Assembly: GCF_009914755.1 (NCBI RefSeq)
Contig: NC_060934.1
Reading direction: 5' to 3' (one strand)
DNA: 64,000 nt
From: the human T2T-CHM13v2.0 reference genome, Homo sapiens
The stretch's first letter is position 1; every line of letters begins with the position of its first letter. The translations under genes and the position numbers were made by a program. The notes beneath the pieces were generated by a model. That model saw only the letters and a list, made by a program, of their open reading frames with translations, searched no databases and was not told where the DNA came from. Of this stretch, positions 30,482-42,200 are shown piece by piece.

Positions 30482-30697
30482 ATGGCGGTCGGCCCTCCCC
30501 CAGCCTCGCTGCCGCCTTGCAGTTTGATCTCAGACTGCTGTGCTAGCAATCAGCGAGATTCCGTGGGCGTAGGACCCTCCGAGCCAGGTGTGGGATATAG
30601 TCTCGTGGTGCGCCGTTTTTTAAGCCGGTCTGAAAAGCGCAATATTCGGGTGGGAGTGACCCGATTTTCCAGGTGCGTCCGTCACCCCTTTCTTTGA
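30482..30697 (+). CDS. L1 ORF0, intact 71 aa, antisense in the L1 5'UTR
   Basis: gcaATGg at 30482; MAVGPPPASLPPCSLISDCCASNQRDSVGVGPSEPGVGYSLVVRRFLSRSEKRNIRVGVTRFSRCVRHPFL*. Matches primate L1 ORF0 as I recall it; expression unknown. Confidence 0.75.
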   Translation: MAVGPPPASLPPCSLISDCCASNQRDSVGVGPSEPGVGYSLVVRRFLSRSEKRNIRVGVTRFSRCVRHPFL

Positions 30698-30930
30698 CTC
30701 GGAAAGGGAACTCCCTGACCCCTTGCGCTTCCCAGGTGAGGCAATGCCTCGCCCTGCTTCGGCTCCCGCACAGTGCGCTGCACCCACTGACCTGCGCCCA
30801 CTGTCTGGCACTCCCTAGTGAGATGAACCCGGTACCTCAGATGGAAATGCAGACATCACCCGTCTTCTGCGTCGCTCACGCTGGGAGCTGTAGACCGGAG
30901 CTGTTCCTATTCGGCCATCTTGGCTCCTCC

Positions 30931-39200: not shown

Positions 39201-42200
39201 AAAACTGATAGGAAACATATAAAATATATAATAACAATCTGGTGTTTGGCTCTTTGCCCATTTCTTGTAACAGCCAAAAATAAGACATTTCTGTGTATAA
39301 GCAGCAAGATGACAATACAGGTTATTTTATTCAGCATGTGGGCTGCCTCAAAAGAGCCAACAGGCCCTTTGGACGCCAGCTTTTTGTGAGAGGATATGTC
39401 CAGAAGAGCCCTCTTGCTGTGTGGCTTGTACTTTTTTCCTTCATGTATCAGCCCACTTGCAGACAGCATGAATTGTTTTGTAAACTTACAGGATGCCACT
39501 GTAAGAAAAGACGGGCCTAGGTGCAGTAGCTCACGTCTGTAATCCCAGCACTTTGGGAGGCTGAGGCGGGTGTATCACCTGTAGTCAAGAATTTGAGACC
39601 AGCCTGGCCAACATGGTGAAACCTCAGCTCTACTAAAAATACAAAAATTAGCTGGGTGTGGTGGCACACACCTGCAATCCCAGCTACTTGGGAGCCTGAG
39701 GCAAGAGAATCACTTGAACCCGGGAGGCAGAGGTTGCAGTGAGCTGAGATCATGCCAGTGCACTCCAGCCTGGGCAACAAGAGTGAAACTCCATCTCAAA
39801 AAAAAAAAAAAAAAGATGGAGTGGGTACAGAAAAATAGAATGAATGAATAAGGCCGAGAATTCTATAGCACAACAGGGTGACTATAGTCAATAATAATTT
39901 AATTGTACATTTGAAACTAACTAAAAGAGTATCATTGGATTGTTGATTTATCCTTTGTCATCCACAAAGGATAAATGCTTGAAGGGATGGATACCCCATC
40001 TTCCATCACGTGATTATTGCGCATTGCTTGCCTGTGTCAAAACATCCCATGTACCCCATAAATATATATACACCTACTATATGTACCCACAAAAATTAAA
40101 TATAAAAAATTGGGTCGGGCATGGTGGCTCATGCCTATAATCTCAAAACTTTGGGAGGCTGAGGCAAGCGGATCACCTGAGATCAGGAGTTCAAGACCAG
40201 CCTAGCCAACATGGTGAAACCCCATCTCTACTAAAAATATGAAATTAGCCAAGTGTGGTGGCGGGCACCTGTAGTCCCAGCTACTCGGGAGGCTGAAGCA
40301 GGAGAATTGCTTGAACCCGGGAGGTGGAGGTTGCAGTGAGCCGAGATCTATAGAGGGAGTTATTTTCATTCTGGGCTCGTTTTCTAACTTTTTTCTAAGG
40401 AACAATGGAAAGAAAGCAGTGGAAGGTAGCCACTGTTTGTCAGATTTCTCCAGCGCCTGCTATCATGCTAAGCTTGCAGCCTCTCTGGGTGGTGTTGATT
40501 TTGGAACCGCTGTGCATTGCCCTCTCCGTGGAGGTGGCAGTCATGTTTCTGACAGCAAACATGGAGAAAAAGAGAAACAAATCAAGGGAAGAGGGAGGAA
40601 ACCCAGCCTGCATTTCAGGTCGCCTTTTTCTTGTTTTGACTTGGCTGTAACTCCAGAGAGTTGACAGACCCTCTAAATTGGCACTAAGCCCCAGCAGTTC
40701 TCCTTTCTTATCTGTTAAAAATACCTCCTAAATTAGACAGGAATCGCAGCGGTCCTCACTTGTTTTGACTGGTGTGTGACCCTGTGATTGTAAAATGTTC
40801 TTCACAGGAACATCGTCTTGAGCAATCCCAAGAAGAGGAACACGTTGTCACTTGCAATGCTGAAATCTCTCCAAAGTGACATTCTTCATGACGCTGACAG
40901 CAACGATCTGAAAGTCATTATCATCTCGGGTATGTATCTGATATCTGTCCTTAGTATTCTGCAGTGCCCAGAAGAGCTTTCTGAGTCTTTAGTAAACTGG
41001 GGCATCCCTTTATTTAACTGGAGAATTGTTTTGAAGCTCCTTTACAAGAACATTAATTATGGAAAACACCTGTGTAGTTGGTGGTTTGGTCCTAACGCTA
41101 TTAACTGCAGAATTTATAACAAAGATGACTGTTCAGTGAAACTATGTCTTTTCCTTTTTGTCAGATACTAAAACATTTCTGTACTTGGCTATACTGGTCT
41201 TCCCCTCAAAATCAGAGAACTGATTTCTTCATGGACCTTATAAAATGGGTTTAACCACTAATCCTTTGGCGCATTTGATTGGTCTGACTTTTCTTTTCTT
41301 ACCAAGCTTTCGAACTGATATCTGCAGTGCCTTTAATGGTGCTGGAAAAGATGACATATTCTGCTAATTTGTTTGCTTGCTCCAAAAGGAATTTTTACAG
41401 AATTATTTTTTCTTGTGATGATGGGACTGGTATAAATAATAGTAATATTAGCATTTTAAAGCATACACAAAAAAATATGATGATGATGCTTTGTGATGCT
41501 ATGTTTGTTTGGCAAATCAAGCATCAGTGTTTCTGGAGGCAGAAACTCAGAATGTTACCATCTTATCCATGGTTAATCGAAAGTGTTCAACTGTTTTATA
41601 TGGTGAAGAGAAAAGAAATTAGAACTAGTACAGTCCAGCAGCCATGTGGGATGTTACCTGGATACAGCAAAGGCAGTTAACGTCTTCTTTTTTTTTTTAT
41701 TTGATACATAGTCTTGCCCTGTTGCCCAGGCTGGAGTGCAGTGGCATGATTATAGCTCATTGCAGCCTCAAACTTCTGGGCTCAAGTGATCTCCCACCTC
41801 AGTCTCCTGAGTAGCTGGGACTATAGGTGTGTGCCACTACACTCAGCTAATTTTTTATTTTTTGTGGAGATGGTGTCTTGCTATGTTGCCCAGGCTGGTC
41901 TCGAACTCCTAGCCTCAAGCAACATTGCCACCACTGTGCCTGGCTAATTTTTCAGGTTTTATTTTGCAGAGACAGGGTCTCACTATAGCTTCTTAACTAC
42001 ATAATTACCTCACTTACAAAAAGACAATAATATTGCCTATCAATCAAGATAACTACAACAGCCAGGCATGGTTGCTCATGTCTGTAATCCCAGTACTTTG
42101 GGAGGCCAAGGCGGGCAGATCACTTGAGGCCAAGAGTTCGAGACCAGCCTGGCCAACGTGGCAAAACCCCATCTCTACTAAAAATACAAAAATTAGCTGG

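What the first reader, a model, noticed from the sequence alone, without database searches (positions are those of the whole stretch)
30482..40929. L1 antisense promoter and intact ORF0 aim at ECHDC3, with splice donors in frame with exons 2 and 3
Seen: the L1 is on the - strand, so its antisense promoter fires along + toward ECHDC3 about 5 kb away. ORF0 (30482-30697) is intact with a strong Kozak context. Donor 2 (TCCAG|gtgcgt, after 30672) leaves 191 coding nt, phase 2, the same as ECHDC3 intron 1. Splicing to 40808 gives ...[13 protein letters not shown]..., a 310-aa fusion keeping the whole crotonase fold but replacing the presequence exon with 63 aa of ORF0. Donor 1 (GCCAG|gtgtgg, after 30587; 106 nt, phase 1) is in frame with exon 3. 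A third donor (CCCAG|gtgagg, after 30735) lies past the ORF0 stop. Established: primate L1 antisense promoters drive chimeric transcripts and ORF0-exon fusions when demethylated. Inference: an ape-lineage, probably non-mitochondrial ECHDC3 isoform in hypomethylated cells such as tumours, placenta or ES cells. It may already be listed in TE-chimeric transcript catalogues; I cannot check.
Basis: partly seen in the sequence, partly recalled or inferred. Interest (0 to 1): 0.75.

Follow-up and report, generated by a model that had tools for sequence, protein, structure and literature searches.

The report
Ordinary L1 ORF0 upstream of ECHDC3
A dead but full-length young L1 retrotransposon sits 4.9 kb upstream of ECHDC3 with its standard antisense ORF0 and splice donors pointing at the gene, so an ORF0-ECHDC3 fusion is possible on paper, but every feature is generic to about two thousand L1 copies and nothing yet shows the fusion is made.

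Summary
A 71-aa ORF0 lies at 30482-30697 (+) with G at -3 and +4. GT donors follow 30587 (phase 1), 30672 (phase 2) and 30735 (past the stop). ECHDC3 introns have phases 2,1,0,0. Donor 2 to exon 2 gives an open 310-aa fusion.

These features belong to the L1 family, not to this locus. The 18-mer across the Kozak/ATG occurs 1,921 times in this genome, against 0 for the control. All 7 of 7 nearest copies carry the same 71-aa ORF0 and Kozak. The two in-ORF donors cover phases 1 and 2, so the frame match is close to chance.

No expression data could be reached. RefSeq has no L1-initiated ECHDC3 transcript. Eight literature searches link ECHDC3 to no L1 chimera. Published base rates are low: 57 of about 3,200 ORF0 loci fused and 44 of 1,509 L1 chimeric transcripts spliced at the 5' end.

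Caveats:
- The strongest donor by a rough matrix lies beyond the ORF0 stop.
- 34 of 743 intervening AGs score at least as well as the exon 2 acceptor.
- Exon 2 starts at ECH_1 profile position 8-9.

Verdict: a latent, unproven instance of a known mechanism, of low interest.

The parts
24896..30930 (-). Full-length young L1PA element. The A-rich tail is 24896-24917 and the body 24918-30930. It cannot retrotranspose.
   Evidence: Searches show the 5' end and the 3' end with its tail. In one search the closest full-length copies in the same genome are 97-98% identical over about 6.03 kb (26 of 15,114 first-look candidates scored).
30027..30930 (-). L1 5'UTR, 904 nt. It holds the sense promoter and, on the opposite strand, the antisense promoter.
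   Evidence: The ORF1 start lies at 30026. The stretch has 39 CpG (observed/expected 0.53), against 32-41 in the equivalent 904-nt slices of seven sister loci (one of which ends short of a full L1 5' end).
29007..30026 (-). L1 ORF1 frame with one in-frame stop at codon 49.
   Evidence: Translation. The longest ATG-initiated piece is 248 aa.
25123..28946 (-). L1 ORF2 remnants in three pieces of 752, 183 and 286 aa.
   Evidence: ORF list.
30331..30631 (+). Expected antisense promoter and start-site zone (L1 positions about +600 to +300). This is inferred, not measured.
   Evidence: Position mapping. Published start zones are +300 to +500 and +150 to +250 (passage read) and within the first 600 bp of the 5'UTR (passage read). 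No ATG lies on the + strand between L1 +650 and the ORF0 ATG.
30482..30697 (+). ORF0, 71 aa, intact (L1 positions 449-234). Codons 3-4 are private to this copy.
   Evidence: 7 of 7 nearest copies have the same length, and all seven read differently from this copy at residues 3-4; the 18-mer at the start occurs 1,921 times; the 24-mer with the private codons occurs once in the genome.
30585..30593 (+). Donor 1, CAG|gtgtgg, after 30587, phase 1.
   Evidence: It is identical in 7 of 7 sister copies. Rough matrix score 4.4.
30670..30678 (+). Donor 2, CAG|gtgcgt, after 30672, phase 2.
   Evidence: It is identical in 6 of 7 sister copies. Rough matrix score 5.2.
30733..30741 (+). Donor 3, CAG|gtgagg, after 30735, past the ORF0 stop. 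It is the strongest GT in 30400-30930 by the rough matrix.
   Evidence: score 7.4. It is identical in 6 of 7 sister copies.
35851..36215 (+). ECHDC3 exon 1. It lies in a CpG island and encodes 56 residues plus 2 nt, including the basic N-terminal segment. The proposed fusion would skip it.
   Evidence: Hub table. One search gives the translation. GC is 72-76%. The first acidic residue is at position 34.
40808..40929 (+). ECHDC3 exon 2, whose acceptor follows a phase 2 intron. It is the proposed target of donor 2.
   Evidence: The exon 2 peptide aligns to ECH_1 profile positions 9-46 (E 0.025, below cutoff).
42951..43048 (+). ECHDC3 exon 3, whose acceptor follows a phase 1 intron. It is the proposed target of donor 1.

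Best explanation
This is an ordinary full-length young L1PA element (L1PA2/L1PA3-like) that can no longer retrotranspose. It was inserted head-first 4.9 kb upstream of the ECHDC3 CpG-island promoter.

Like roughly two thousand other copies in this genome, it carries the standard primate L1 antisense ORF0 on the strand shared with ECHDC3. That ORF0 comes with its standard Kozak context, two internal splice donors and a third donor just past the stop.

The fit between donor 2 and exon 2, and between donor 1 and exon 3, follows from the fixed phases (1 and 2) of the family's donors. It is not a locus-specific adaptation.

Most likely behaviour (inferred):
- The antisense promoter is silent in most tissues.
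- Where it fires (pluripotent cells, placenta, some tumours), it mainly makes short unspliced read-through RNA ending in the intergenic stretch.
- At most a rare minor species splices into ECHDC3 exon 2.
- A stable translated ORF0-ECHDC3 protein is possible but unproven and probably negligible.
For: Shown here:
- ORF0, the donors and the frames are as described.
- The 216-nt ORF0 matches at 98-100% in 40 of 40 scored copies, from 1,941 first-look candidates.
- 7 of 7 nearest copies have the same 71-aa ORF0, Kozak and donor 1, and 6 of 7 the same donors 2 and 3.
- The 18-mer over the Kozak/ATG occurs 941+980 times, against 0 in the control.
- The L1 is 97-98% identical to its closest full-length copies. 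ORF1 has a stop at codon 49 and ORF2 is in three pieces.
- CpG content of the 5'UTR is the same as in sister copies.
- On the + strand, 7 AATAAA and 9 ATTAAA lie between the L1 and exon 2, the first at 32350/32449.
- 34 of 743 intervening AGs score at least as high as the exon 2 acceptor in a rough matrix.

From papers (passages read):
- ORF0 is 71 aa. About 3,200 loci exist, and 57 were seen fused to exons (PMC4908685).
- Donors inside ORF0 make the fusions. [quoted passage not shown]
- Only 44 of 1,509 L1 chimeric transcripts were spliced at the 5' end (PMC9396940).
- Hypomethylation alone is typically insufficient (PMC10879037).
- RefSeq lists no upstream ECHDC3 first exon (hub table).
Against: - No transcript, CAGE, methylation or proteomic data could be consulted, so a real recurrent isoform is not excluded.
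- The arrangement is favourable: the 5'UTR is complete, CpG content is undecayed relative to sisters, no upstream ATG precedes ORF0, the promoter points the same way as the gene only 4.9 kb away, and the fusion frame is open.
- Lists of L1 antisense promoter genes are in supplementary tables that were closed (988 genes in PMC4908685, tables in PMC9396940 and PMC10879037). ECHDC3 could be listed there.
- The donor and acceptor scores use approximate matrices recalled from memory. The acceptor matrix rates the genuine exon 3 acceptor at -2.0, so it is a weak guide.
Confidence: 0.65

Rival explanations
1. In L1-hypomethylated cells the antisense promoter of this copy works as an alternative ECHDC3 promoter. 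Donor 2 splices to exon 2 and a 310-aa ORF0-ECHDC3 fusion is translated. It lacks the exon 1 presequence and is mislocalised away from mitochondria.
For: - The frame across the junction is open and gives 310 aa.
- The Kozak context is strong and no upstream ATG precedes ORF0.
- ORF0 residues 1-36 are net negative with the first acidic residue at 18. The exon 1 peptide is basic with its first acidic residue at 34.
- Exons 2, 4 and 5 give matches spanning ECH_1 profile positions 9-249 of 251 (exon 3 alone gave none).
- The mechanism is documented for other loci.
Against: - There is no RefSeq model and no literature link.
- Base rates for fusion and for 5' splicing are low.
- Donor 3, beyond the ORF0 stop, scores higher than donor 2.
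- Many competing acceptors and poly(A) signals lie between the L1 and exon 2.
- Part of the published start-site range (+300 to +448 and +150 to +250) lies downstream of the ORF0 ATG at L1 position 449.
- The first ECH_1 columns would be lost.
- ORF0 residues 37-63 are strongly basic (net +4 to +5), so localisation is not predictable.
Confidence: 0.1
2. The antisense promoter does feed into ECHDC3 but makes no fusion protein. Transcripts use donor 3 or cryptic exons, or start downstream of the ORF0 ATG. They then carry ORF0 as an upstream ORF (probably making them decay targets), or encode the normal or an N-terminally shortened ECHDC3, or are non-coding.
For: - Donor 3 is the best-scoring GT in 30400-30930 and lies past the stop.
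- Donor 3 joined to any tested acceptor stops at residue 72.
- Candidate acceptors lie just upstream of and inside exon 1, at 35605, 35679 and 36141.
- Antisense-Alu-type acceptors lie at 32040 and 33153/33157.
- A second published start zone lies at +150 to +250.
Against: The lack of transcript data is the same as for the other readings. The splice scores come from rough recalled matrices. No annotated exon lies between the L1 and ECHDC3 (hub table).
Confidence: 0.15
3. The L1 matters to ECHDC3 as a cis-regulatory or epigenetic element and not as a promoter. It could act as an enhancer, or as a source of methylation or heterochromatin spreading onto the ECHDC3 promoter.
For: It is close to the promoter (4.9 kb). 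L1 5'UTRs bind transcription factors and influence flanking methylation (passage read).
Against: The reported reach of L1-driven methylation effects is about 300 bp, far less than 4.9 kb. The ECHDC3 promoter is a separate strong CpG island. There is no locus data.
Confidence: 0.05

Closest known systems
Primate L1 ORF0 (Denli et al. 2015, Cell 163:583). The paper was not held; it is known here through passages in PMC4859970, PMC4908685 and PMC5554003.
   Same: It is a 71-aa ORF on the antisense strand of the 5'UTR, downstream of the antisense promoter, with two splice donors inside the ORF that allow fusion to nearby exons.
   Different: Only two private residues, at positions 3-4, set it apart from the 7 nearest copies. 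Nothing structural is different. Expression of this copy is unknown.
L1 antisense-promoter chimeric transcripts. Examples in the passages read are L1PA2-BCAS3 (PMC10879037) and UVRAG, whose annotated start lies in an L1 antisense promoter (PMC4908685).
   Same: A young L1 with a complete 5'UTR lies antisense to a gene, so its antisense promoter points the same way as the gene, with donors available for splicing to a gene exon.
   Different: In those cases spliced reads or ESTs prove the junction. Here none is known. The BCAS3 example is intronic, whereas this L1 lies upstream of the gene's own CpG-island promoter, so exon 1 must be skipped or read through.
Canonical ECHDC3 (NM_024693.5), a 303-aa crotonase-family protein.
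   Same: The hypothetical fusion would share residues 57-303, including the junction arginine.
   Different: The 56 exon 1 residues would be replaced by 63 ORF0 residues. About 7 N-terminal ECH_1 profile columns would be lost.

Membership tests
Primate L1 ORF0 locus | An open reading frame of about 70-71 aa on the antisense strand of the L1 5'UTR | tested here: met
   A 71-aa ORF at 30482-30697, L1 positions 449-234. The published length is 71 aa.
Primate L1 ORF0 locus | Two splice donor sites inside the ORF | tested here: met
   GT donors lie after 30587 and 30672. They are shared by 7 of 7 and 6 of 7 sister copies. The feature is stated.
Primate L1 ORF0 locus | Strong translation start context | tested here: met
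   G at -3 and G at +4. That this is a described family property is recalled from the abstract of Denli 2015, which was not read here.
Primate L1 ORF0 locus | Host element is L1PA1 to L1PA8 with the homologous 5'UTR | tested here: met
   The 5'UTR is 904 nt, and the closest full-length copies are 97-98% identical. 1,921 exact copies of the start 18-mer exist. The exact subfamily was not assigned by a repeat library.
Primate L1 ORF0 locus | Transcribed and translated | not testable with these tools
   No RNA, ribosome or peptide data were available.
L1 antisense-promoter chimeric transcript or ORF0-exon fusion gene | L1 5'UTR antisense to the gene, so the antisense promoter points the same way as the gene | tested here: met
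   The L1 is on the - strand and ECHDC3 on the + strand. The L1 5' end at 30930 is 4,917 nt upstream of 35847 (hub table).
L1 antisense-promoter chimeric transcript or ORF0-exon fusion gene | [quoted passage not shown] | not testable with these tools
   No CAGE, EST or long-read data were available.
L1 antisense-promoter chimeric transcript or ORF0-exon fusion gene | Observed splice junction from an L1 donor to a gene exon | not testable with these tools
   None appears in RefSeq (hub table). None was found in print. Supplementary lists were closed.
L1 antisense-promoter chimeric transcript or ORF0-exon fusion gene | Open frame across the junction (for a fusion protein) | tested here: met
   Donor 2 to exon 2 gives 310 aa, and donor 1 to exon 3 is open.
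Crotonase (Pfam ECH_1) domain retained whole in the fusion | Exons 2-5 cover the whole profile | tested here: inconclusive
   Exon 2 matches profile positions 9-46 (E 0.025, below cutoff), exon 4 matches 82-145 and exon 5 matches 149-249 of 251. Exon 3 alone gave no hit. Positions 1-8 fall in exon 1. Whether the fold tolerates the swap was not tested.
L1PA2/L1PA3 subfamily (ape-specific age) | Subfamily-diagnostic positions, and presence at the orthologous site in apes only | tested here: inconclusive
   The 5'UTR of about 904 nt and the trinucleotide GAG at the 3'UTR diagnostic site fit an element older than human-specific L1. Both diagnostics are recalled, not checked against a library. Pairwise identity is 97-98%. 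No other primate genome was available.

The most novel reading that the evidence does not exclude
This particular L1 copy supplies an ape-specific alternative promoter and first coding exon for ECHDC3. In pluripotent, placental or tumour cells it would yield a translated 310-aa ORF0-ECHDC3 protein. That protein lacks the mitochondrial presequence and would place a crotonase-family enzyme, or a tumour-restricted junction antigen, outside mitochondria.
Probability: 0.08. Interest if true: 0.4.

Novelty: new member of a known kind. Interest (0 to 1): 0.2.

Why it matters
If the junction were real and recurrent, it would add one more ORF0-gene fusion to the several dozen reported. It would also offer a possible tumour- or stem-cell-restricted antigen, and a primate-specific non-mitochondrial form of a poorly characterised enzyme. 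ECHDC3 is one of the two genes closest to the Alzheimer's variant rs7920721 (passage).

As it stands, the finding shows only that the generic L1 toolkit happens to sit in a permissive position. That is true of many genes and does not open a new question.

The practical value is a clean, cheap test. The copy has a genome-unique 24-mer at ORF0 codons 1-7. That lets reads and N-terminal peptides be assigned to this locus despite the repeat.

Tried and rejected
- **Target-site duplication.** An exact search for words of 8-20 nt between the two L1 flanks found none. By eye there are only weak A-rich similarities, so the insertion boundaries rest on the L1 ends themselves.
- **Pfam on ORF0 and on the exon 1 peptide.** Both returned 0 families.
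- **Rfam over 24800-41200.** The only hit is an Alu-like SRP match at 34961-35077. No structured RNA is relevant to the finding.
- **Literature.** Eight pair ECHDC3 with an L1 or chimera term:
  - ECHDC3 with 'antisense promoter': 0 papers.
  - With LINE-1 and chimeric: 0.
  - With L1PA: 1, a deletion gene list.
  - With LINE-1: 2, unrelated by listing.
  - With 'transposable element': 3. One abstract mentions an unspecified polymorphic insertion in ECHDC3.
  - Hyphenated names such as L1-ECHDC3: 0.
  - With retrotranspos*: 4 hold the terms, 3 were listed, unrelated by listing.
  - With chimeric: 16 hold the terms, 15 were listed, unrelated by title.
- **Papers not held.** Speek 2001, Matlik 2006 and Denli 2015 could not be read. 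The published L1 coordinates of the antisense donors could therefore not be compared with mine.
- **Earlier findings of the scan** were not open.
- **Splice scoring.** The donor and acceptor matrices are approximations recalled from memory. The acceptor matrix mis-scores the real exon 3 acceptor, so I use it only to show that competitors exist.
- **Structure or complex prediction of the fusion** was not attempted. The spliced protein is a joined sequence and not a letter-for-letter window product.
- **Frame match as a sign of selection** was rejected. The fixed donor phases 1 and 2 make a match with some early exon the expected outcome.
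Full report
**1. The observation**

- On the + strand an uninterrupted 71-codon ORF runs from 30482 to 30697. 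Its start context is gggcaATGg, with G at -3 and +4.
- GT dinucleotides in good donor context follow 30587 (CAG|gtgtgg, 106 nt from the ATG, phase 1) and 30672 (CAG|gtgcgt, 191 nt, phase 2).
- A third follows 30735 (CAG|gtgagg), which is 38 nt past the stop.
- With the hub's exon table, the coding parts of ECHDC3 exons 1 to 5 are 170/122/98/201/321 nt and give a 303-aa protein. The intron phases are 2,1,0,0.
- Joining donor 2 to 40808 gives an open 310-aa product reading ...[13 protein letters not shown].... Joining donor 1 to 42951 is also open. The two other combinations hit stops at once.

**2. The element that carries it**

The ORF lies on the antisense strand of the 5'UTR of a full-length L1 on the - strand.
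- The body is 24918-30930, the A-rich tail 24896-24917 and the 5'UTR 904 nt.
- In L1 coordinates the ORF0 ATG is at 449, donor 1 at 344, donor 2 at 259, the stop at 234 and donor 3 at 196.
- The element cannot retrotranspose. The ORF1 frame has an in-frame stop at codon 49, and ORF2 is split into pieces of 752, 183 and 286 aa.
- Its closest full-length relatives in the same genome are 97-98% identical over about 6.03 kb (26 of 15,114 first-look candidates scored).
- The 3'UTR reads GAG at the trinucleotide I recall as diagnostic for the human-specific subfamilies.

Together this points to a young L1PA element of L1PA2/L1PA3 type. That assignment rests partly on recalled diagnostics and not on a repeat library. 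No exact target-site duplication of 8 nt or more was found. The L1 5' end is 4,917 nt from the ECHDC3 start at 35847.

**3. Family property, not locus property**

- The 216-nt ORF0 found 1,941 first-look candidates in the genome. All 40 that were scored were 98-100% identical.
- In the 7 nearest copies, 7 of 7 have an intact 71-aa ORF0 with the same Kozak context and donor 1. Six of 7 have identical donors 2 and 3.
- The exact 18-mer spanning the Kozak context and ATG occurs 941+980 = 1,921 times, against 0 for the reversed control.
- The 5'UTR has 39 CpG (observed/expected 0.53), within the 32-41 range of the equivalent 904-nt slices of the seven sister loci, one of which ends short of a full L1 5' end. 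It is neither specially preserved nor specially decayed.
- The only private feature is a two-codon change at residues 3-4, which makes a 24-mer unique in the genome.

This matches print. ORF0 is a 71-aa antisense ORF of L1HS and L1PA2-8, with about 3,000-3,200 loci and splice donors inside the ORF that allow fusions to nearby exons. [quoted passage not shown]

**4. Is the frame match meaningful?**

No. The family's two in-ORF donors always have phases 1 and 2. Any downstream exon that follows a phase 1 or phase 2 intron is therefore in frame with one of them. In ECHDC3, 2 of 4 acceptors qualify (exons 2 and 3) and 2 do not (exons 4 and 5, phase 0). That is about what chance gives.

**5. What the hypothetical proteins would be**

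- The donor 2 fusion would replace the 56 exon 1 residues with 63 ORF0 residues and keep residues 57-303. The junction residue is arginine in both forms, because both donors end in AG.
- Scanned exon by exon against Pfam, residue 2 of exon 2 aligns to ECH_1 profile position 9 of 251 (E 0.025, below the cutoff). Exon 4 aligns to 82-145 and exon 5 to 149-249. Exon 3 alone gave no hit.
- About seven N-terminal profile columns are therefore in exon 1, and 'the whole crotonase fold' is slightly overstated.
- The donor 1 to exon 3 product would additionally lack profile positions 9-46. I infer that it is unlikely to fold.
- The exon 1 peptide is basic, with its first acidic residue at 34. ORF0 1-36 is net negative in every 18-residue window, with its first acidic residue at 18. 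ORF0 37-63 is strongly basic, at net +4 to +5.
- Loss of mitochondrial import is plausible but not predictable from this.

**6. Obstacles between promoter and fusion**

- Published antisense start sites lie at +300 to +500 and also +150 to +250 (PMC9396940). Only starts upstream of position 449 include the ORF0 ATG. On the favourable side, no upstream ATG lies between +650 and the ORF0 ATG.
- By a rough donor matrix (frequencies recalled), donor 3 scores highest in 30400-30930 at 7.4, against 5.2 for donor 2 and 4.4 for donor 1. Donor 3 lies beyond the ORF0 stop. Its use leaves ORF0 as a 71-aa upstream ORF.
- Between the L1 and exon 2 the + strand has 7 AATAAA and 9 ATTAAA, the first at 32350/32449.
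- It also has 743 AG dinucleotides, of which 34 score at least as high as the exon 2 acceptor in a rough acceptor matrix. These include antisense-Alu-type sites at 32040 and 33153/33157, and sites at 35605, 35679 and 36141 near or in exon 1. That matrix is weak, since the true exon 3 acceptor scores -2.0.
- Donor 2 to the cryptic site at 36141 would also be in frame. This is speculative.
- The transcript must also traverse ECHDC3's own CpG-island promoter, where GC is 72-76%.

**7. Base rates and direct evidence**

- 57 of about 3,200 ORF0 loci were seen fused to a gene exon. L1 antisense promoter ESTs touch 988 genes (PMC4908685).
[quoted passage not shown] The rest were continuous read-through (PMC9396940).
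- The youngest L1 families are hypomethylated in pluripotent cells and placenta but not in most tumours, and hypomethylation alone is typically insufficient for expression (PMC10879037).
- For this locus, RefSeq's three ECHDC3 transcripts all start at 35847/35851 (hub table).
- None of the eight searches pairing ECHDC3 with L1 or chimera terms found a relevant paper.
- The gene lists are in supplements I could not open, so an entry for ECHDC3 there is not excluded.

**8. Verdict**

The interpretation describes a latent possibility that follows from a well-known mechanism, and it is unsupported by any expression evidence I could reach.

I rate it most likely (0.65) that this is an ordinary, mostly silent L1 whose antisense output, when present, is mainly unspliced or non-fusion. 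A recurrent translated ORF0-ECHDC3 fusion gets about 0.1. Non-fusion alternative-promoter use gets about 0.15. A purely cis-regulatory role gets about 0.05.

The kind is known. At best this is a new, unproven member. Interest is low.

**9. A practical note for the proposed checks**

A tryptic junction peptide does not exist, because arginine precedes NIVLSNPK in both native and fusion proteins. Proteomics should use Lys-C, chymotrypsin or immunopeptidomics. RNA reads can be assigned to this copy through the unique 24-mer at ORF0 codons 1-7.

Noticed in passing
window 35781-35851: A perfect 20-bp tandem repeat (unit GGGGCGGGGCGGGGCGTGCC, 3.5 copies, 100% matches) ends exactly at the annotated ECHDC3 transcription start (35847/35851). 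It is rich in GC-box-like motifs. It is a candidate variable-number repeat in the core promoter of a gene near an Alzheimer's GWAS signal.
   Followed up: no
window 35929-35953: A perfect 10-bp tandem repeat (CCGTCGAGTT, 2.5 copies) lies inside the ECHDC3 5'UTR.
   Followed up: no
window 34961-35077 (-): The only Rfam hit in 24800-41200 is Metazoa_SRP at 70.1 bits, against a gathering score of 70. It spans 117 nt and is most likely an Alu-type SINE fragment antisense to ECHDC3, about 800 nt upstream of the start.
   Followed up: no
window 30488-30493 (ORF0 codons 3-4): This L1 copy differs from all 7 nearest copies at ORF0 residues 3-4. The 24-mer across them occurs once in the whole genome, so it is a usable locus-specific tag inside a highly repeated element.
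   Followed up: yes
window 29007-30026 (-) and 25123-28946 (-): L1 ORF1 is open for 338 codons except for one in-frame stop at codon 49. ORF2 is in three pieces of 752, 183 and 286 aa.
   Followed up: partly
window 30931-31095: NCBI's repeat mask continues 165 nt beyond the L1 5' end, so the L1 abuts or was inserted into another repeat. No exact target-site duplication of 8 nt or more was found.
   Followed up: partly
window 30074-30331 (+): An 85-aa ATG ORF lies on the antisense strand of the L1 5'UTR, upstream of the antisense promoter zone (L1 positions about 857-600). It is probably a chance ORF and was not compared across copies.
   Followed up: no
ECHDC3 gene region (literature): A meeting abstract (PMC11710843, whole text read) reports polymorphic transposable-element insertions causing 'feature elongation of ECHDC3'. 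They colocalise with risk SNPs for white-matter hyperintensity. The element and its position are not given, and it need not be this L1.
   Followed up: partly
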